From contig CALOED010000303.1 in NCBI GenBank assembly GCA_942492005.1, positions 9,823 to 73,822 of the forward strand: a stretch of 64,000 nucleotides of DNA, written 5' to 3'. Both the position numbers and the translations under genes were made by a program. The DNA is from an uncultured Saprospiraceae bacterium. Its GTDB lineage: Bacteria > Bacteroidota > Bacteroidia > Chitinophagales > Saprospiraceae. A model generated the notes under the pieces. That model did no database searches, was not told where the DNA came from, and was given only the letters and a program-made list of their open reading frames with translations. Of the stretch, positions 8,369-59,175 are shown piece by piece; within the stretch, counting starts at the first letter, position 1; every line of letters starts with the position of its first letter.

Positions 8369-10073
8369 TTAGCCATTCATCGAAATCAAAAACTCATCAT
8401 TATTGCGAGTTCCTTTCATTTGATTTTTCAAAAATCGCATTGCCTCTTCTGGATTCATATCACCTATATGTCGGCGCAATATCCACATACGATTCAGCGT
8501 CTCGCTATCCATGAGTAAGTCCTCACGTCGAGTGCTGGATTTGTTAATATCAATAGCAGGGAAAATCCGTTTATTCGCCAATCCTCGGTCAAGTTGAAGC
8601 TCCATGTTACCTGTACCTTTAAATTCTTCAAAGATAACGCTATCCATTTTAGAACCCGTATCGGTCAGCGCAGTAGCAAGTATTGTAAGAGAACCGCCAT
8701 TCTCGATGTTACGAGCTGCACCAAAGAACTGTTTGGGCTTGTGCAAAGCATTTGCTTCCACACCACCCGACAATACCTTACCACTAGCAGGAGCTACGGT
8801 GTTGTGCGCTCTTGCCAAACGAGTAATCGAATCCAAGAGAATAACTACATCGTGACCACATTCTACTAAGCGTTTCGCCTTTTCTAGTACAATGCTTGAC
8901 ACTCGAACATGACGTTCTGCAGGCTCGTCAAAAGTAGAAGCAACTACTTCTGCTCTTACGCTACGTTGCATATCTGTTACCTCCTCTGGGCGTTCGTCTA
9001 TCAATAATATTATCAAATAACACTCTGGATGATTTTTAGCGATAGCATTGGCAATATCCTTCAAAAGGAAAGTTTTACCCGTTTTAGGCTGTGCCACAAT
9101 CAATCCACGCTGTCCTTTCCCAAGAGGCGAGAACAAATCAATAATTCGAGTAGGATAATGAGTTGGCCCTAAAGGAATATTGAATTTTTCTTGCGGAAAA
9201 AGAGGAGTGAGGTAGTCGAAAGGTACTCTATCTCTAGCTTCTAAAGGCTCACGACCATTGATTAAAGTCACTTTTAGTAGCGCAAAATATTTTTCGCCTT
9301 CTTTTGGAGGACGAATAGCACCCTGCACAGTATCACCTGTTCTTAATCCGAATAATTTGATTTGAGAAGGCGATACATATATATCATCTGGAGAAGTCAA
9401 ATAATTGTAATCCGATGAACGTAAGAAACCATAGCCATCAGGCATCATTTCCAAAATACCCTCTCCTTCGATGATACCATCAAATTCGATATTGAATCGA
9501 GTATTTCGGCCACGTTTTTCTCGGTCTTTATTGTCTCGGTTATCACGATTGTCACGATTATCACGATTGTCCTTGTTACTTTTATTATCACGAGAGCTTT
9601 TTTCCTCTTTTTTGTAACGTTTTTCTTCCGCAGGCGGTGGCGTTTTGACTTCTTCTTTCTTCGCTTTTTCAGCCTTTTCGACCTCTTTCAGCGCAGGAGT
9701 AAGCCATTTCTTTCAAAAACTCTTCTTCTGTAATAATTTCTACCTCTGGCGCAACTTTCTTTTTGCGTCCACGGCTTTTATTTTTTTCCTCCTTCGCTTT
9801 TTCTTCTTCCGCTCTAGCTTCTTCCATTTCAGCTTTAGTACGACGACGACGCTTAGGTTTATTATCTACTTCTTCTTTAGTAGTTGTTTGTATTTCTTCT
9901 TCGTTTTGGTCGGCAGGAGGCGTATTTTTATTGCCTTCGATAGCTTGGTGGTCAAGAATTTTATAAATCAATTCTTGTTTGGAGAGCTTTTTATACTGGG
10001 TTAAGCCAATTCTATCTGCGATGTCTCGCAGTTCTGGCACCAGCATTTCGTTTAATTGCAAAATGTCGTACAT
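8369..10073 (-). pseudogene. rho: transcription termination factor Rho, reading frame interrupted by a 1-nt shift in the N-terminal insertion domain
   Basis: The 9672..10073 frame encodes the Rho N-terminal domain (MYDILQLNEMLVPELRDIADRIGL...). The frame open over 8369..9712 encodes the charged linker, the CSD-like RNA-binding domain and the ATPase ([17 protein letters not shown]). 10073-9454 is not a multiple of 3. The two open frames overlap only at 9672-9712. Confidence 0.85.
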
Positions 10074-10849
10074 AGGATTAATACGGTTAGTTTTAAAATT
10101 CCTAAATTTTAGATTAAAAAATGATTATCAGATTGTAATTTGATATGTAATTATAACGGGTTGGATGAATGCTATAAGATTATTTGGTGATTAAATAGCT
10201 CATACTCAATGTATAAGATAAACTGTGTAAACACTGTTAAATAATTAAACCAAACAGTTCTTAATTATCAAATAATCTTATGCGCTACCTTTAGTTATAG
10301 AAAATTTAATCGGATAAAGTGATTTTGATTGTATTGTATAAGTAAGCAATCAACGCAATGTATTCTTATTTTTATAAAAAAAAGCTATTAAACACTTATT
10401 TTACTGAATAACGTCGAACTATATCAATTAGTTGCCAATATTTAGACCAAACCTTATAAAACCCACCTTATTAGATAAAAATAATTGAAGGATTGGTTTT
10501 CTTTCGTGAATTTAAATATCAAATTGTTTGTTAGGAAAAAAATAAATTTGAAAGGAATACCAACTGATTTCATTGAAATGCTCACTACCTCAGAAATCTT
10601 TATACTAAAATGGTAAGTGGTCTAATTTTTAATTGTGGCACAAAAATACATTTAATTTTTAAAAATCAAAGATTATCTTTGCCAAAATTAAAAAAAATTA
10701 GAAACCTAAGAATAATAAGTGGTGGATTAGTTTGCTAAACTAATCATTACAGGATATATTAAAAACCGATAATTGCTTAAAAAATCCAAGTAGTTATAAA
10801 TAAACGTTTAAGCGTTTTGCCACAAAAATAACACAGAATAAAGTATATT

Positions 10850-25466: not shown

Positions 25467-25728
25467 AAGGCAAAGGCTCAAACGTTTTACTAAATACAAT
25501 TTGAAGGCTGTTGTTGCATTGGATTAATCCTTGCGGCAGCAGCTTTTTTATTTTTAAAATAGAAATAATACAGGCTACCCTTCCACGAAATTTATCATTT
25601 TTTGATAGAGATGGCGATGAGATTTGTATTTTAATTAAAATAAGAATACATTTGCCGTACATTGTACGAGAGAAAATACTTGCTGTTTTCAAACTGTCCA
25701 ATGTTTAACCTTATGATTAAAAGAACAA

Positions 25729-26418: not shown

Positions 26419-28293
26419 ATGGACGACATTTTATTTGACGAACCAAAAGTAGTCAAGGAAGAAAAAAAAGAACAACAGGCGATAGAGCCAAATCCACGTG
26501 TAAAAGGTGGATATTTTATCGTAGGCGATACGCCAGCGAATGAATTATTTATAGCAGAAGAATTTGAAGAAGACCAACGTATGGTAGGCGATACGGTTAG
26601 GGATTTTTGTATAAAAGAAATTCAAGAGCCGTTTTTTCAGCGAGGTAGAGAGTTGGAAATTACAAAGCCAGAAGACAAAGCCGAAATGTTGGCAATACTC
26701 AAAAGAGCGGGCGAAATTGGTCTTTGTGGCGTAAGTATTCCAGAAGAATACGGTGGAATGGGTTTAGATTTTAGAACCAATACCTTAATTTCTTTCAATT
26801 TGGCGTACGGATTCTCATTCGCTACAACGCTTGGCGCGCAAACTTCTATCGGTTGTTTGCCAATCGTATATTATGGTAATGAAGCGCAAAAACAAAAGTA
26901 TTTACCGAAAATTGCGACAGCAGAATACGTTGCGGCTTATGCTTTGACTGAACCAAATGCGGGTTCGGATGCGAATGCTGGAAAAACCAAAGCGGTTTTG
27001 AGCGAAGACGGAAAAAATTATATCATCAATGGTCAAAAGATTTGGATTTCCAATGGTGGTTTTGCTGATATTTATATCGTTTTTGCTAAAATTGACGATG
27101 ACAAAAAGCTATCCGCCTTTATTGTAGAACGCGATTATGAAGGTTTTTCAGTAGGCGCAGAAGAAAAAAAGATGGGTATTAAAGGTTCTTCGACCGTACA
27201 AATCTTTTTTGATAATTGTAAAGTGCCTGCCGAAAACCTATTGGGCGAGCGTCAAGGTGGTTTCAAAATGGCGTTGAATATTTTGAATGGCGGACGCATC
27301 AAAGCAGGTTCGGGTGGTACAGGCGGAGCAGTCAATGCTTTAAATCAGTCGGTAAAATATACTATCGAACGCAAGCAGTTTGGCAAATCTATTTCAGAAT
27401 TTGGGGCAATTCAATACAAAATTGGCGATATTTCTATGCGCATTTTTGCCAATTCAGCCGCTGTTTTTCGTTGCGCAGATTTGATTGATAAAAAAGAAGC
27501 CGAACTCAAATCCGCTGGCATTGATGAAAATAAAGCCAAAGTTGATGGGATTAGAGAATTTGCCATCGAAGCTGCAATTGTGAAAGTAAAAGGCTCGGAA
27601 CTGGCGTGTTATGCCGTAGATGAAGCCATTCAAATGCACGGAGGCATGGGCTATTCAGCCGAAACAGGCTTAGGAATGGGCTATCGTGATGCGAGAATTA
27701 CCAAAATCTACGAAGGCACAAACGAAATCAATGCAATGTTAGCCGTTGGAGAATTAATGAAACGTGGCATTGTGACCAAAGAATTGGATTTGAAAGCCGC
27801 AGGTGCAAAAGTGCCAGGTTTTATCGCTTCGCAATACAATCCTTTTCGCTCAAAATCAACAGTTTCTGAACAAGAACGTATTATCAAAGGTTTAAAAAAT
27901 ACATTCCTTTTTGTATCGGGCATGGCGGGCAGAAAGCTCAAAAAGGAAATGCTAGACGAGCAAGAAATTATCTTGAACTTATCTACCATTCTCCAAGAAG
28001 CCTACGTTTGCGAATCGGCTTATTTGAAAATTCAAAAGCTAGAAGGTGAGGCGAATTCTGATGAAGCAAAATTAGCTATTCAAAAACAAATGGTGCAATT
28101 ATACTTGTATGAAGCAGTCGAAAAAGCTAGAAAAGCGGCTTTGGAAGCAGTAGCGAGTTTTACAACTGGCGGTCAGAAAAATAATTACAATCGAGTAGTG
28201 AATGTAATGCTTCGACCTTTTAATGTCAATCCAAAGGAACTCAGAAGAAATATTGCTCAGGCGGTTATCAAAGCTGGTAAATACGATTTTTAA
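26419..28293 (+). CDS. acyl-CoA dehydrogenase (long form with C-terminal extension)
   Basis: 624 aa with ACAD motifs (YALTEPNAGSDA, QIWISNG, GGMGY...YRDARITKIYEGTNEI). Confidence 0.85.
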   Translation: MDDILFDEPKVVKEEKKEQQAIEPNPRVKGGYFIVGDTPANELFIAEEFEEDQRMVGDTVRDFCIKEIQEPFFQRGRELEITKPEDKAEMLAILKRAGEIGLCGVSIPEEYGGMGLDFRTNTLISFNLAYGFSFATTLGAQTSIGCLPIVYYGNEAQKQKYLPKIATAEYVAAYALTEPNAGSDANAGKTKAVLSEDGKNYIINGQKIWISNGGFADIYIVFAKIDDDKKLSAFIVERDYEGFSVGAEEKKMGIKGSSTVQIFFDNCKVPAENLLGERQGGFKMALNILNGGRIKAGSGGTGGAVNALNQSVKYTIERKQFGKSISEFGAIQYKIGDISMRIFANSAAVFRCADLIDKKEAELKSAGIDENKAKVDGIREFAIEAAIVKVKGSELACYAVDEAIQMHGGMGYSAETGLGMGYRDARITKIYEGTNEINAMLAVGELMKRGIVTKELDLKAAGAKVPGFIASQYNPFRSKSTVSEQERIIKGLKNTFLFVSGMAGRKLKKEMLDEQEIILNLSTILQEAYVCESAYLKIQKLEGEANSDEAKLAIQKQMVQLYLYEAVEKARKAALEAVASFTTGGQKNNYNRVVNVMLRPFNVNPKELRRNIAQAVIKAGKYDF

Positions 28294-28300
28294 AAGAACA

Positions 28301-29162
28301 AATAGCGTTTTTTTTAAACACATAGGCACATAGAAAATATAAGAGTATTAGCCGTTTTTATTTTTTATAAAAAAATAATTGGCGGTTTAATTCCAATTAT
28401 TTTTTCTCAGAAAAATAAAACTAATAAACATTTTTCTATGTGCCTATGTGTTAAAATAACAAATAGTGTTTTCAAAGAATAGCGTTTTTTTAAACACAAG
28501 GCACATAGAAAATAGAAGAGTATTAGCCGTTTTTATTTTTTATGAAAAAATAAGTGGCGGTTTAATTCCAATTATTTTTTCTCAGAAAAATAAAACTAAT
28601 AAACATTTTTCTATGTGCCTATGTGTTAAAATAACAAATAGTGTTTTCAAAGAATAGCGTTTTTTTAAACACAAGGCACATAGAAAATAGAAGAGTATTA
28701 GCCGTTTTTATTTTTTATGAAAAAATAAGTGGCGGTTTAATTCCAATTATTTTTCCTCAGAAAAATAAAATTAATAAACATTTTTCTATGTGCCTATGTG
28801 TTAAAATAACAAATAGTATTTTCAAAGAATAGCGTTTTTTTTAAACACATAGGCACATAGAAAATATAAGAGTATTAGCCGTTTTTATTTTTTATAAAAA
28901 AATAATTGGCGGTTTAATTCCAATTATTTTTTCTCAGAAAAATAAAACTAATAAACATTTTTCTATGTGCCTATGTGTTAAAATAACAAATAGTGTTTTC
29001 AAAGAATAGCGTTTTTTTAAACACAAGGCACATAGAAAATAGAAGAGTATTAGCCGTTTTTATTTTTTATGAAAAAATAAGTGGCGGTTTAATTCCAATT
29101 ATTTTTCCTCAGAAAAATAAAACTAATAAACATTTTTCTATGTGCCTATGTGTTAAAATAAC
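28301..29162. repeat. 4.9 tandem copies of a 175/177-bp unit, each with a 21-nt inverted repeat
   Basis: Units start at 28301, 28478, 28653, 28828 and 29005. The arms are AACACATAGGCACATAGAAAA / TTTTCTATGTGCCTATGTGTT, separated by 94 nt (e.g. 28317-28337 and 28432-28452). Confidence 0.95.
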
Positions 29163-29193: not shown

Positions 29194-30483
29194 ATGCAAA
29201 AAGTAGTAATCATCGACGGTGCGAGAACGCCATTTTTACGTTCAGGCACAGACTATATGGATTTAATGTCCTATCAATTAGGCGGTTTTGCCATCAAAGG
29301 ATTGTTGACCAAAACGGGCATTGACCCAAAAATGATAGATGCCGTCATCATGGGCAACGTCATTTCAAATGTCAAAACGCCAAACGTAGCACGAGAAGCC
29401 GCATTGATGGCTGGCGTACCACATACCACGCCTTGTAGAACCGTTTCGCAAGCCTGTATTTCTGCCAATCGTGCGATTTCGGACGGTTGTTTGGAAATTA
29501 TGACTGGGCAAGCGGATATTGTTATCGCTGGTGGAATCGACCATACTTCAGATACGCCGATACAGTTTCCTCGCAAAATGCGTAAAAAACTTTTCAAAGC
29601 ACAGCGCATCAAAACAATGGGCGATAATTTGAAGTTTTTGACTTCTTTACGCTTTTCGGATTTTGTACCAGAACGCCCATCTGTTTCAGAATATACGACG
29701 AATAAAATGATGGGGCAAGATTGTGATGTAATGGCTGCAAGGTTTGCCGTGAGCCGAGAAGCACAAGACGAATTTGCAGTGCGTTCGCATCAGTTGGCGC
29801 ACAAAGCACACGAAGAAGGGCATTTGCCAAATGAAATCGTGGAAGTCAATTTGCCACCAAAATTTAAAGTCATTGATAGAGATAACGGCGTTCGTGGCAA
29901 TTCTACCATTGAAAAAGTAGCTAAACTTCGTCCTGCTTTTGATAAAAAATTCGGAACATTGACGGCTGCGAACTCTTCATTTTTGACCGATGGCGGCTCG
30001 GCAGTGCTGTTGATGTCAGAAGAAAAAGCGAAAGAATTGGGTTTTACTCCATTGGCAGAAGTCGTAGATTTTGTGTTTACAGGTCAGCGATTGGAAGATG
30101 AATTGCTACTTGGGCCAACTTATGCGGTTTCTGAATTATTGAAGCGTCAAAATATGACTTTCGATGATATGGATGTGATTGAATTCCATGAAGCTTTTGC
30201 TGGTCAAATTCTTGCTAATCTCGAAGCATTGTCTTCTGATGAATTTGCACAAAAAAACTTAGGTAGAGACAAAGCAGTGGGAGAAGTGCCAATGGATAAG
30301 TTTAATCTTTGGGGCGGTTCATTATCGATTGGTCATCCGTTTGGTGCTACTGGCGGAAGATTATTAACGACTACCGCTAATCGTTTGCAGCATGAAGGCG
30401 GCACTTACGGACTTTTGGCGGCTTGTGCGGCTGGGGCGCATGGTCATGCGATGTTGGTAAAAAAATGGAGTGATGGAATGTAG
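29194..30483 (+). CDS. acetyl-CoA C-acyltransferase (thiolase, FadA/FadI-like)
   Basis: The ORF in the track (28993..30483) runs into the repeat array. The first ATG after the repeat (29194, MQKVVIIDGARTPF...) gives a canonical 429-aa thiolase. Confidence 0.85.
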   Translation: MQKVVIIDGARTPFLRSGTDYMDLMSYQLGGFAIKGLLTKTGIDPKMIDAVIMGNVISNVKTPNVAREAALMAGVPHTTPCRTVSQACISANRAISDGCLEIMTGQADIVIAGGIDHTSDTPIQFPRKMRKKLFKAQRIKTMGDNLKFLTSLRFSDFVPERPSVSEYTTNKMMGQDCDVMAARFAVSREAQDEFAVRSHQLAHKAHEEGHLPNEIVEVNLPPKFKVIDRDNGVRGNSTIEKVAKLRPAFDKKFGTLTAANSSFLTDGGSAVLLMSEEKAKELGFTPLAEVVDFVFTGQRLEDELLLGPTYAVSELLKRQNMTFDDMDVIEFHEAFAGQILANLEALSSDEFAQKNLGRDKAVGEVPMDKFNLWGGSLSIGHPFGATGGRLLTTTANRLQHEGGTYGLLAACAAGAHGHAMLVKKWSDGM

Positions 30484-30572
30484 GAATGATGGAATATTGT
30501 TGCTACCGCTGTTAATCGCTTATATTTGCCATTAATAGCAGTAGCAACAACATTCCTATATTCCACCATTCC
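30483..30572 (+). other. long imperfect hairpin in the thiolase-FadB intergenic spacer
   Basis: GGAATGATGGAATAT...TGTTGCTACCGCTGTTAAT pairs with ATTAATAGCAGTAGCAACA...ATATTCCACCATTCC. That is about 15 bp plus about 22 bp with a 7-nt bulge. There is no T-run afterwards. Confidence 0.7.
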
Positions 30573-30587
30573 ATTAAAAAAACTAAA

Positions 30588-56454: not shown

Positions 56455-56568
56455 GGTTCATTGACAATTTTTGCCAAGATAAAACCCTGTATACTTGCCG
56501 CAGGCAGTAGTACTCGCTGCCTGCGGCAAGCGCCTTTGGGGCTTTCTGGCAAAAATTGTCAATGAATC
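56455..56568. mobile_element. MITE-like nested palindrome flanked by an 8-bp direct repeat
   Basis: The 20-nt perfect terminal inverted repeats are TTCATTGACAATTTTTGCCA (56457-56476) and TGGCAAAAATTGTCAATGAA (56547-56566). The inner 13-bp hairpin is TTGCCGCAGGCAG/CTGCCTGCGGCAA. AACTAAAA lies on both flanks (56447-56454 and 56569-56576). Confidence 0.6.
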
Positions 56569-58972: not shown

Positions 58973-59044
58973 AGTAGCGCAAACGTTCGGTTTAGCTCGC
59001 TCTAATACGCTTTCCAAATATGTTAAATATACCTAGCTGGTTCT

Positions 59045-59088
59045 AAAAAAAAGGGTTTCTATTCAATTTGAATAGAAACCCTTTTTTT
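59045..59088. terminator. bidirectional intrinsic terminator
   Basis: AAAAAAAA-GGGTTTCTATTCA-ATT-TGAATAGAAACCC-TTTTTTT between convergent genes. Confidence 0.8.
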
Positions 59089-59175
59089 AGGAATATGCGT
59101 CCCGTCAGTAACTGCCTGCCTGTTGGCTCAAGAATTATTAAGTAATTGCTGTTGGAAATAATTTTGTCTAACTAC

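What the first reader, a model, noticed from the sequence alone, without database searches (positions are those of the whole stretch)
28301..29162. Five tandem 175/177-bp hairpin units inserted between fadE-like and thiolase genes
The 900-bp gap between the acyl-CoA dehydrogenase stop (28293) and the thiolase ATG (29194) is filled by 4.9 head-to-tail units.

**Unit order.** Units 1 and 4 (177 bp) look identical to each other. Units 2, 3 and 5 (175 bp) are a second variant with a few further differences. The order is A-B-B-A-B, which points to recent unequal recombination.

**Unit structure.** Each unit has 21-nt arms AACACATAGGCACATAGAAAA / TTTTCTATGTGCCTATGTGTT around a 94-nt AT-rich core. 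In B units the left arm lacks one T, giving a 1-nt bulge. The core carries its own palindromes: TTATTTTTTATAAAAAAATAA, and AATTGG-N10-CCAATT. The arm itself holds CACATAG twice in tandem.

**Consequences.**
- An operon transcript would have to cross five near-identical long hairpins.
- Alternatively, the DNA offers ten copies of a candidate protein-binding motif directly downstream of a TetR-regulated gene.
- Each unit also has the TIR-core-TIR anatomy of a MITE, but amplified in tandem.

I know of no described element of this form in a beta-oxidation operon.
Basis: seen in the sequence. Interest (0 to 1): 0.65.

Follow-up and report, generated by a model that had tools for sequence, protein, structure and literature searches.

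The report
Tandem gene-less CATAG-box hairpin repeats
The five tandem hairpins between two fatty-acid-degradation genes are real, and they are gene-less copies of a Bacteroidota-wide repeat whose 'CATAG-box' arms normally bracket a small nuclease gene of unknown function (GxxExxY), a link I found described in no paper I could search.

Summary
**Observation.** It is confirmed. 4.9 head-to-tail units (177/175 bp, order A-B-B'-A-B) fill the acyl-CoA dehydrogenase-thiolase gap. Each unit folds into a ~140-nt hairpin.

**The arm is not private.**
- The 21-nt arm occurs verbatim in at least 120 contigs across Bacteroidota, always intergenic.
- It is built from CATAG boxes spaced 8 nt apart.

**What the arms are.** They are the inverted terminal repeats around a ~135-aa GxxExxY gene (PF13366, PD-(D/E)XK nuclease fold, function unknown).
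- 4 of 120 loci picked by the arm carry this gene within about 50 nt of an arm.
- In 80 loci picked by the protein alone, boxes are 61-fold enriched at the gene ends.
- The box variant (CATAG, CATAAG, CAATAG, CAGAG) follows the protein clade.
- Tandem clusters of gene-less hairpin units (period 100-170, up to 5.5 copies) recur beside these genes.

**Reading.** The window's array is a gene-less, tandemly amplified member of this family with a private 94-nt core. The nearest relative has a single CAGAG-box hairpin in the same gap.

**Rejected.** Intrinsic terminator, TetR operator, CRISPR, any Rfam family.

**Shown versus inferred.** Family membership is shown. Nuclease-driven spread (REP/RAYT-like) and any effect on the operon are inferred.

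The parts
28301..28477 (.). Unit 1 (type A, 177 bp). Left arm 28317-28337, 94-nt AT-rich core 28338-28431 with an inner hairpin, right arm 28432-28452. The extended stem is 28310-28337 / 28432-28459.
28478..28652 (.). Unit 2 (type B, 175 bp). The left arm 28493-28512 lacks one T, so the outer CATAG box is broken. Right arm 28607-28627.
28653..28827 (.). Unit 3 (type B', 175 bp, two private substitutions). Left arm 28668-28687, right arm 28782-28802.
28828..29004 (.). Unit 4 (type A, identical to unit 1). Left arm 28844-28864, right arm 28959-28979.
29005..29162 (.). Unit 5 (type B, truncated after the right arm and so lacking the 17-nt end of the spacer). Left arm 29020-29039, right arm 29134-29154.
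26419..28293 (+). Acyl-CoA dehydrogenase (FadE-like), the gene upstream of the array.
   Evidence: Pfam; closest homologues come from Saprospiraceae MAGs
29194..30483 (+). Thiolase, the gene downstream of the array. No Bacteroidetes-type promoter consensus lies between the array and its ATG.
25623..25654 (+). The only full Bacteroidetes-type promoter consensus (TTTG-N20-TAcaTTTG) in 25-33 kb, upstream of the TetR gene. This suggests TetR-ACAD-array-thiolase-FadB is one transcription unit (inference).
30473..30574 (.). A second long hairpin, in the next gap of the operon (thiolase to FadB-like). Its arms are 47 nt and 81% complementary, each with three GGAAT boxes at period 8. The architecture matches the array's arms but the box differs. 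It is not part of the array and is listed as context.

Best explanation
**What it is.** The array is five tandem copies of a gene-less foldback element. The element belongs to a Bacteroidota-wide repeat family that I call CATAG-box hairpins.

**The family.**
- Each arm holds 2-4 direct CA(N)TAG boxes spaced about 8 nt apart.
- The outer end reads AAAC/AACC-ACATAG ... CTATGT-GGTT/GTTT, set in a T-run on the 5' side and an A-run on the 3' side.
- In the full form, the two arms bracket a promoterless ~135-aa GxxExxY gene (PF13366/TIGR04256). This is a minimal PD-(D/E)XK nuclease with its catalytic E, D and ExK residues intact.
- The full form sits in operon spacers, co-oriented with the upstream host gene.
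- Short-loop, gene-less hairpins are the non-autonomous form. They are dispersed in many genomes and often piled into tandem clusters next to the nuclease gene.

**The window's element.** It has the family arms, a private 94-nt core instead of the gene, and a 40-nt spacer. The 175-bp block was amplified to about five copies by unequal recombination or replication slippage between the repeats.

**Inferred mechanism.**
- The boxes are the DNA recognition sites of the cognate GxxExxY nuclease. The nuclease spreads or maintains the hairpins in trans, as RAYT does for REP sequences.
- The array itself is most likely selfish or neutral DNA.
- Its foreseeable side effect is that a read-through operon transcript would carry five stems of 21-28 bp or more, which are candidate RNase III substrates. 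That could uncouple the stability of the fadE message from that of the fadA-fadB message.
For: **Shown.**
1. The array and its hairpins are real. K-mer depth gives about 5 copies.
About 0.3 are expected by chance for 596 Gb.
3. None of these sites lies inside a gene by a crude longest-ORF call. The neighbours are tandem in 69 loci, convergent in 22 and divergent in 7.
4. An unbiased clustering of neighbouring ORFs picked out one small family lying within about 50 nt of an arm in L011, L092, L102 and L114. Scans of two members (L011, L092) identify it as TIGR04256/PF13366.
5. The reciprocal test used 80 metagenome loci chosen by protein similarity only. Double boxes lie within 200 nt upstream in 42, downstream in 52 and on both sides in 38. 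Density is 5.8/kb near the gene against 0.095/kb beyond 400 nt.
6. With box variants allowed, 72 of 82 loci have at least 3 boxes at the gene ends.
7. The box variant is the same on both sides of a gene and clusters with protein similarity. More distant GxxExxY genes in Bernardetia and Bacteroides finegoldii carry CACAGAG boxes.
8. Box positions are 97% complementary between the arms and spacer positions 73%. G:T mismatches do not exceed A:C mismatches (75 against 104). This points to conservation of DNA sequence rather than of an RNA helix.
9. Tandem clusters recur: L153 167 bp x5.5, L011 131 bp x3.5 and x2.7, L162 103 bp x3.3, L196 123 bp x3.7, L003 114 bp x3.8.
10. The AlphaFold2 model has pLDDT 93.5. 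Its best PDB neighbours are Cas4 SSO0001, lambda exonuclease and XisH. E32, D72, E82 and K84 are invariant.
11. The nearest relative (ACAD 87% identical) has only 127 bp in this gap, holding one CAGAG-box hairpin. A 73% relative also has a CAGAG-type hairpin there.
12. Near-identical hairpins lie at 5 to 9 or more different loci within single MAGs.
Against: - No GxxExxY gene lies in the 64-kb window. The rest of the genome is unseen.
- The 94-nt core and the spacer have no relative in about 1.1 Mb of family loci. The unit as a whole is therefore private, and only its arms tie it to the family.
- In this genome no dispersed copy is seen: none in the 64 kb, and the depth fits 5 copies only.
- No target-site duplication or empty-site pair was found, so mobility is not demonstrated.
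- No experiment shows that GxxExxY proteins bind or cut these boxes. The gene could instead be cargo that homes into pre-existing hairpins.
- B-type units have lost the outer left box. That fits decay, but it also means the boxes are under no visible selection here.
- No RNA data exist for the locus.
Confidence: 0.6

Rival explanations
1. The array is a functional RNA element of the operon. The five hairpins in the read-through transcript act as RNase III processing sites, 3'-end stabilisers or attenuators that set the ratio of FadE to FadA/FadB. This is compatible with the family origin, and would mean an exapted element rather than junk.
For: - The array lies inside an apparently single transcription unit, with no promoter consensus between it and the thiolase gene.
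- The predicted RNA hairpins are very stable.
- Every spacer of this operon, here and in relatives, carries a long hairpin.
- GxxExxY cassettes are co-oriented with the upstream gene in 53 of 59 cases, so the arms are normally transcribed.
Against: - No 3' U-tract follows the hairpin on either strand. It is T-run, hairpin, A-run both ways, so it is not a canonical terminator.
- Family arms show no excess of G:U-compatible mismatches on the sense strand (75 G:T against 104 A:C).
- Conservation sits in the boxes rather than in base pairing.
- The nearest relative manages with one unrelated hairpin in 127 bp.
- B-type units carry a bulge.
- No RNA data exist.
Confidence: 0.2
2. The array is an operator or protein-binding platform for the adjacent TetR-family regulator, or for another local regulator. 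It would offer ten CACATAG-box sites downstream of the regulated gene.
For: There are ten copies of a repeated motif, and a TetR gene lies 2 kb upstream.
Against: - The identical 21-mer lies in at least 120 unrelated contexts across the phylum.
- It associates 61-fold with a nuclease gene instead.
- The relatives L121, L204 and L205 keep the TetR-ACAD-thiolase arrangement without CATAG boxes.
Confidence: 0.03
3. The copy number, or the whole array, is an assembly artefact produced by collapsing or expanding a repeat in a metagenome assembly.
For: The source is a metagenome contig, and a 175-bp period is longer than a typical read. No long reads were available.
Against: - Independent Logan contigs reproduce both outer junctions and the inter-unit junctions.
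- The shared piece has about 5x the flank depth.
- The A and B unit variants are interleaved in a definite order.
- Similar arrays occur in many unrelated assemblies, including long-read ones.
Confidence: 0.04
4. The hairpins are older than the nuclease gene. CATAG-box palindromes would be host or selfish REP-like sequences with some other origin, and the GxxExxY gene would be a homing-type cargo that inserts into them. On this reading the array owes nothing to the nuclease.
For: - The gene is found both inside a hairpin loop (L102, L210) and between complete hairpins (L092, L208).
- Gene-less hairpins far outnumber gene-bearing ones among loci selected by the arm.
- PD-(D/E)XK homing endonucleases exist (general knowledge; I-Bth0305I is a weak fold hit).
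Against: The box variant tracks the protein clade. This is expected if protein and boxes co-evolve, and it is also compatible with homing specificity, so the data here do not separate the two readings.
Confidence: 0.13

Closest known systems
REP / BIME sequences with their RAYT (TnpA-REP) nuclease ('REPtron')
   Same: - Both are extragenic palindromic repeats dispersed through a genome.
- Both are often clustered in tandem next to a small single-domain nuclease gene that the repeats flank.
- In both, the repeat sequence co-varies with the nuclease clade.
- Both sit preferentially at gene 3' ends or in operon spacers.
   Different: - The partner here is a PD-(D/E)XK (GxxExxY) protein, not an HUH/Y1 transposase.
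- There is no GT[AG]G foot.
- The arms are built from 2-4 direct boxes at 8-nt period.
- The same 21-mer is shared across a whole phylum, whereas REPs are lineage-specific.
- The Bacteroidetes RAYT subclass 2.6 'atypical REPs' listed in PMC6006769 do not contain this motif.
Transcribed MITEs of bacteria (Correia/NEMIS of Neisseria, ERIC/IRU, RUP, BOX). Comparison from my own knowledge.
   Same: - Both are 100-180-bp elements with 20-30-bp terminal inverted repeats.
- Both are AT-rich and intergenic.
- Both are co-transcribed with their neighbours and fold into long RNA hairpins. Correia hairpins are cut by RNase III.
   Different: - No target-site duplication could be defined here.
- The putative autonomous partner encodes no known transposase.
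- This unit is amplified in tandem rather than dispersed in its genome.
ORF-bearing intervening sequences of 23S rRNA (a long stem excised by RNase III, sometimes enclosing a small ORF). From my own knowledge; the link to GxxExxY is a recollection that I could not verify.
   Same: A small ORF is enclosed by a long complementary stem, lies inside a host transcript, and is co-oriented with it.
   Different: The elements here sit in mRNA spacers, not in rRNA helices. Processing has not been shown, and the mismatch pattern does not indicate selection on an RNA helix.
Integron gene cassettes / attC
   Same: Both involve promoterless small ORFs with imperfect palindromes that depend on upstream transcription.
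   Different: Here there is no integrase and no attI. The palindrome halves flank the ORF on both sides, and there is no R/L box consensus.

Membership tests
CATAG-box hairpin / GxxExxY cassette family (defined here) | Arms made of 2-4 direct CA(N)TAG boxes at a period of about 8 nt, with the inverted copy on the other side. | tested here: met
   The window arm is AACACATAGGCACATAGAAAA, with two perfect boxes and a degenerate third (TATAAG / ACATT). The right arm is its exact complement.
CATAG-box hairpin / GxxExxY cassette family (defined here) | Outer terminus AAAC/AACC-ACATAG...CTATGT-GTTT/GGTT, within a 5' T-run and a 3' A-run. | tested here: met
   The window has TTTTTTTTAAACACATAGG...CCTATGTGTTAAAA. 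Matches of 25-29 nt, 100% identical over arm plus flank, occur in dozens of loci.
CATAG-box hairpin / GxxExxY cassette family (defined here) | Intergenic position, typically between co-oriented genes. | tested here: met
   In the window the element lies between ACAD(+) and thiolase(+). In the family, none of 120 arm sites lies inside a gene, and 69 of the 98 with both neighbours called are between co-oriented genes.
CATAG-box hairpin / GxxExxY cassette family (defined here) | A GxxExxY (PF13366) gene between or next to the arms. | tested here: not met
   There is no GxxExxY gene or remnant in the array or in the 64-kb window. The array is therefore filed as the gene-less form, which is also the majority state among loci selected by the arm.
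CATAG-box hairpin / GxxExxY cassette family (defined here) | Occurrence as tandem clusters of hairpin plus spacer units. | tested here: met
   The window has 175 bp x4.9. The family has 103-167 bp x2-5.5 in L003, L011, L028, L153, L162 and L196.
MITE | Terminal inverted repeats and small size (<300 bp). | tested here: met
   The TIRs are 21-28 bp and the hairpin is about 150 bp.
MITE | Target-site duplication flanking each copy. | tested here: inconclusive
   The flanks continue the palindrome (T-run / A-run, often TTAA), so a palindromic TSD cannot be told apart from an extension of the TIR. No empty-site pair was found.
MITE | Many dispersed copies in the same genome. | tested here: not met
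   For this unit there is no other copy in 64 kb, and the depth fits 5 copies. The feature is met for short-loop relatives in other MAGs.
MITE | Derivation from an autonomous element that encodes a transposase. | tested here: inconclusive
   The partner gene is a PD-(D/E)XK nuclease of unknown function. No transposase activity is known for it, and the core shows no remnant of the gene.
REP/BIME-RAYT | A 5' GT[AG]G foot on a 20-40-nt palindrome. | tested here: not met
   The arm has no GTAG or GTGG foot. The motif is absent from the REP tables of PMC6006769.
REP/BIME-RAYT | Association with an HUH/Y1 RAYT gene. | tested here: not met
   The only ORF family found lying within about 50 nt of the arms is GxxExxY, in 4 of 120 arm-selected loci.
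Intrinsic (Rho-independent) terminator | A G+C-rich stem followed by a 3' U-tract. | tested here: not met
   The stem is AT-rich. A T-run precedes the hairpin and an A-run follows it on both strands.
CRISPR array | Repeats separated by unique spacers, with cas genes nearby. | tested here: not met
   The spacers and cores are identical between units. None of the eight genes flanking the array that were scanned is a cas gene.
Any Rfam family | A covariance-model match at or near the gathering score. | tested here: not met
   The only hits are sub-threshold chance matches to miRNA-precursor hairpin models, both in the window and in 8 family loci.

The most novel reading that the evidence does not exclude
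GxxExxY proteins form a very large PD-(D/E)XK family with no known function. On this reading they are the trans-acting nucleases of a phylum-wide superfamily of box-structured hairpin repeats.

- The system would parallel REP-RAYT but be built on a different nuclease fold.
- The 5-8-nt box (CATAG, CATAAG, CAATAG, CAGAG and others) would co-evolve with the nuclease and define its specificity.
- Tandem hairpin arrays like the one in this window would be by-products of its activity.
- These elements would routinely colonise operon spacers, where their transcribed stems reshape mRNA processing.
Probability: 0.4. Interest if true: 0.8.

Novelty: new variant of a known kind. Interest (0 to 1): 0.62.

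Why it matters
**For the window.** The finding turns an apparent oddity of one operon into an instance of a general element. It removes the TetR-operator and terminator readings.

**More broadly.**
1. It gives the first concrete, testable functional context for GxxExxY/PF13366. This family had nearly 8,000 close relatives among the 8,000 candidates scored and is listed as 'function unknown' (PMC3424549).
2. It defines a repeat family whose 21-26-nt core is conserved verbatim across classes of Bacteroidota and Ignavibacteria. That is unusual for REP- or MITE-type repeats, which are normally lineage-specific.
3. It suggests that PD-(D/E)XK nucleases, like HUH nucleases, have been recruited to maintain populations of palindromic repeats.
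4. These hairpins sit inside operons of a phylum that lacks Shine-Dalgarno-based initiation and has few known RNA-processing signals. They may therefore matter for operon mRNA architecture.
5. In practice, such arrays break short-read assemblies and can be mistaken for CRISPR-like or regulatory arrays.

Tried and rejected
- **Rfam.** No family matched the array or 8 family loci.
- **Literature.** The exact arm sequence appears in no paper. The Bacteroidetes REP/RAYT papers describe 'atypical REPs' of RAYT subclass 2.6, but their tables lack the motif. A search for GxxExxY, PF13366 and TIGR04256 returned four papers; the two I read give no functional information.
- **Viruses and plasmids.** The arm is absent from the viral contigs. 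GxxExxY is absent from the phage collection and occurs only as rare, distant copies on plasmids. I therefore dropped a phage or plasmid origin.
- **Solved structures.** There is no PDB relative by sequence.
- **RNA evidence.** No RNA runs hold the locus.
- **Empty-site search.** An all-against-all comparison of the loci found no pair with and without the element.
- **Gene remnant.** The core shows no significant similarity to GxxExxY.
- **Own protein lookup.** The window's ACAD is not on record in the contig index, so strain variants of the array could not be retrieved.
- **Other box hairpins.** GGAAT and CAGAG triple boxes were searched in 1.1 Mb of loci and are rare there, so their family status stays open.
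- **Sigma-70 scan.** The sigma-70 promoter/terminator scanner was not used, because Bacteroidota promoters differ. I scanned for the TTTG/TAnnTTTG consensus instead.
- **Caveat on gene calls.** The gene calls in the loci are my own crude longest-ORF calls, not annotations.
Full report
**1.
- TRF reports a single array at 28301-29162 with period 175, 4.9 copies and 96-97% identity.
- Aligning the five units shows U1 and U4 are identical (177 nt). U2, U3 and U5 are 175 nt. They share a T deleted in the T-run, a T deleted in the left arm, and three substitutions. A few further differences separate them.
- The complementarity runs on to 28 nt. The core holds an inner 29-nt imperfect stem around a 10-nt loop, so a whole unit is one ~140-nt hairpin.
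- The fold energy is -52 kcal/mol on the + strand and -53.5 on the - strand, with z about -9 and 0 of 200 shuffles as stable.
- The flanking genes are TetR, an acyl-CoA dehydrogenase, a thiolase and a FadB-like bifunctional enzyme.
- The window is 37.8% G+C. Its ACAD is closest to proteins of uncultured Saprospiraceae (87%, then 78% identity).

**2. The array is not an assembly artefact, as far as can be told.**
- Logan contigs of two sediment-metagenome runs reproduce the left junction, the right junction and the inter-unit junctions.
- In run X1 the 55-nt piece common to all units has depth 21.6, against 3.7-4.7 for the flanks. That is about five copies, with no large surplus from copies elsewhere in the genome.
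- Long reads were not available.

**3. The arm is a phylum-wide sequence.**
- The arm and the core occur nowhere else in the 64 kb.
They come from Saprospiraceae, Lewinellaceae, Flavobacterium, Pedobacter, Chitinophagaceae, Cytophagales, Crocinitomicaceae, Prolixibacteraceae, Ignavibacteria and others. About 0.3 chance hits are expected.
- Read in context, the conserved sequence is CTATG-TTTT-CTATG-TGC-CTATG-TGTT(T)AAAA, with its inverted copy upstream. Each arm therefore carries 2-4 CATAG boxes about 8 nt apart, and the loops run from about 10 to more than 100 nt.
- None of the 120 sites lies inside a gene by a crude longest-ORF call. Neighbours are tandem in 69, convergent in 22 and divergent in 7.
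- Single MAGs carry near-identical hairpins at 5 to 9 or more unrelated loci.

**4. What the arms belong to.**
- I clustered all ORFs in the 120 loci without prior assumption. One ~138-aa family lay within about 50 nt of an arm in four unrelated loci.
- Scans of two members (L011, L092) identify the family as TIGR04256 'GxxExxY protein' / PF13366 PDDEXK_3.
- In L102 the gene sits exactly in the loop: AAACACATAGGCACATAGAAAACATAG, 10 nt, the ORF, then CTATGtggcCTATGtttCTATGtgttt.
- For the reciprocal test I took 80 metagenome loci chosen only by similarity to the protein. Double CATAG/CTATG boxes lie within 200 nt upstream in 42, downstream in 52 and on both sides in 38. Density is 5.8/kb there against 0.095/kb beyond 400 nt, a 61-fold difference.
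- The typical layout is TTAACCACATAGgcaCATAGaaaCATAGnnCACATAGt, ATG ... stop, then CTATGtgnnCTATGnnnCTATGTGGTTAAAAA.
- Loci without strict CATAG boxes carry variants (CATAAG, CATATAAG, CAATAG/CATTAG, CATAAAAG), and the type is the same on both sides.
- With variants allowed, 72 of 82 loci have at least 3 boxes at the gene ends, and the box type clusters with protein similarity.
- More distant GxxExxY genes (41-45% identity) in isolates of Bernardetia and Bacteroides finegoldii are flanked by CACAGAG/CTCTGTG triple boxes.
- Two further loci taken from the protein search show both arrangements: the gene inside one hairpin (L210) and the gene between two complete hairpins (L208).

**5. Properties of the cassette.**
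- The upstream neighbour is co-oriented in 53 of 59 loci and the downstream neighbour in 41 of 56. The median gaps are 118 and 94 nt.
- The left arm abuts the ATG and contains no Bacteroidetes -7 motif. The gene therefore looks promoterless and dependent on host read-through (inference).
- The 5' and 3' flanks pair far better than shuffled controls, with a mean of -35 against -21 kcal/mol.
- The complementarity is concentrated in the boxes: 97% at box positions against 73% between them.
- Mismatches are not biased toward G:U on the sense strand (75 G:T against 104 A:C).
- I read this as conservation of a DNA sequence motif on both ends, that is terminal inverted repeats or binding sites, rather than selection for an RNA helix.
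- The protein model is confident (pLDDT 93.5). It is a minimal PD-(D/E)XK domain whose closest solved folds are Cas4 SSO0001, lambda exonuclease, XisH and splicing endonuclease.
- E32, D72, E82 and K84 are invariant.
- Proteins from Ignavibacteria, Chlorobi, Bacteroidota and Acidobacteria MAGs are 64-75% identical to the L102 query. That fits horizontal spread.

**6. Tandem clusters are a normal state of the family.** TRF over all the loci finds arrays of hairpin plus spacer units, mostly right beside a GxxExxY gene:
- L153: 167 bp x5.5, immediately upstream of the gene.
- L011: 131 bp x3.5 and x2.7, on both sides of the gene.
- L162: 103 bp x3.3.
- L196: 123 bp x3.7.
- L129: 119 bp x2.8 (the CATAAAAG variant).
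- L003: 114 bp x3.8.
- L028: 161 bp x2.1.

The window's 175 bp x4.9 array fits this pattern.

**7. What is particular to the window.**
- Only the arms and their T/A flanks match the family. The 94-nt core and the 40-nt spacer match nothing in about 1.1 Mb of family loci.
- The core shows no trace of the gene, and the 64-kb window encodes no GxxExxY protein.
- The nearest relative (L121, ACAD 87% identical) has 127 bp between ACAD and thiolase. That gap holds one hairpin whose arm is CGCAGAGT-TTACAAGAG-GAGCAGAG, the CAGAG box type.
- A 73% relative (L205) also has a CAGAG-type hairpin there. A third relative (L204) has an unrelated G+C-rich hairpin.
- This operon spacer is therefore repeatedly occupied by different hairpins, at least two of them of the box type, and the CATAG array is specific to this lineage.
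- The next spacer in the window (30473-30574) holds a 47-nt-arm hairpin with three GGAAT boxes at period 8.

**8. Readings rejected.**
- *Intrinsic terminator.* The stem is AT-rich and no U-tract follows it. The layout is T-run, hairpin, A-run on both strands.
- *TetR operator.* The motif is phylum-wide and tracks another gene, and relatives keep the operon without it.
- *CRISPR.* The 'spacers' are identical and no cas gene is among the eight flanking genes scanned.
- *Rfam.* There are no real hits.
- *Phage or plasmid origin.* The arm is absent from viral contigs, and the gene is absent from phages and rare on plasmids.
- The only full Bacteroidetes promoter consensus near the operon is upstream of TetR. 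A read-through transcript would therefore cross the array, but no RNA data exist.

**9. Mechanism, with its status.**
- *Shown.* The array's arms are members of the box-hairpin family. The family's arms bracket GxxExxY genes. The box type co-varies with the protein. Gene-less copies and tandem clusters are common.
- *Inferred (about 0.4-0.5).* The nuclease recognises the boxes in DNA and spreads or maintains the gene-less hairpins in trans, as in the REP/RAYT system.
- *Alternative that these data cannot separate.* The gene may be a homing cargo of hairpins that were already there.
- *Inferred.* The 175-bp block was amplified by unequal recombination or slippage. U1 = U4 suggests a recent duplication of about 527 bp.
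- *Inferred.* The array is neutral or selfish. The broken outer box in B units fits decay.
- *Possible side effect, untested.* The stems of 21-28 bp or more may be RNase III substrates in the operon mRNA.

**10. Novelty.**
- The searchable literature has no description of the motif or of a link between GxxExxY and repeats. PF13366 is listed as function unknown (PMC3424549).
- I cannot exclude a description in papers that are not held.
- I rate it a new variant of a known kind: nuclease-associated palindromic repeats of the REP/RAYT or MITE type, with a different nuclease fold and box-structured arms.
- The array alone is of modest interest. The family it exposes is of considerable interest.

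Noticed in passing
window 30473-30574: The thiolase to FadB-like gap is filled by another long hairpin with 47-nt arms (81% complementary) and an 8-nt loop. Each arm reads ATGGAATG|TAGGAATG|ATGGAATA, three GGAAT boxes at period 8. The architecture matches the CATAG arms but the box differs. It may be a further branch of the same superfamily.
   Followed up: partly
L121 2415-2510 and L205 4375-4580 (the ACAD-thiolase gap in relatives): The relatives carry CAGAG-type triple-box hairpins at the position where the window has the CATAG array. This is the same box type that flanks GxxExxY genes in Bacteroides finegoldii and Bernardetia (L203, L202).
   Followed up: yes
L205 5865-6599: A 73% relative has a 735-nt thiolase-FadB gap. 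It contains arms made of GAAGT/AAGTAT boxes at a period of about 8 (GTGAAGTGTAAAGTATGAAGTATAAGGTATGAAGTGTGAAGTAT). This is yet another box-periodic hairpin.
   Followed up: no
L006, L013, L017, L026, L044, L088, L090, L091, L113 (Saprospiraceae/Lewinellaceae MAGs), just 3' of the CATAG hairpins: A second conserved repeat, AAATCCGTGTCTCATCC...AATCCGTGTTCC (AATCCGTGT boxes), regularly lies beside the CATAG hairpin. In these genomes the hairpin loop is itself a GTAG-footed palindrome (GTAGAGTACTCTAC).
   Followed up: no
L003 (contig labelled as a Synechococcus sp. MAG) and L033 (Pyrinomonadaceae MAG): The exact arm, and in L003 a 114-bp x3.8 CATAG-hairpin array, sit in contigs binned to non-Bacteroidota genomes. 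This means either mis-binning or horizontal transfer.
   Followed up: no
window 9530-9571: A short tandem repeat, ATTGTCACG x4.7 (also read as an 18-mer x2.3).
   Followed up: no
window 56457-56566 and 10174-10281: Two further inverted repeats with long loops: 20-nt perfect arms with a 70-nt loop, and 21-nt arms with a 66-nt loop. They have no CATAG boxes and their nature was not examined.
   Followed up: no
window 59041-59093 and 699-755: Compact palindromes with A/T-run flanks (AAAAAAAAGGGTTTCTATTCAA / TTGAATAGAAACCCTTTTTTT, and AAAAAATGGCTGCTAG.../...CTAGCAGCCATTTTTT). They look like ordinary bidirectional terminators, in contrast to the array's hairpins.
   Followed up: no
window 28296 and 28308 versus run X1: The X1 contig differs from the window at the left junction (G>T at 28296, and one T fewer in the T-run). 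A slightly different strain therefore carries the same junction.
   Followed up: no
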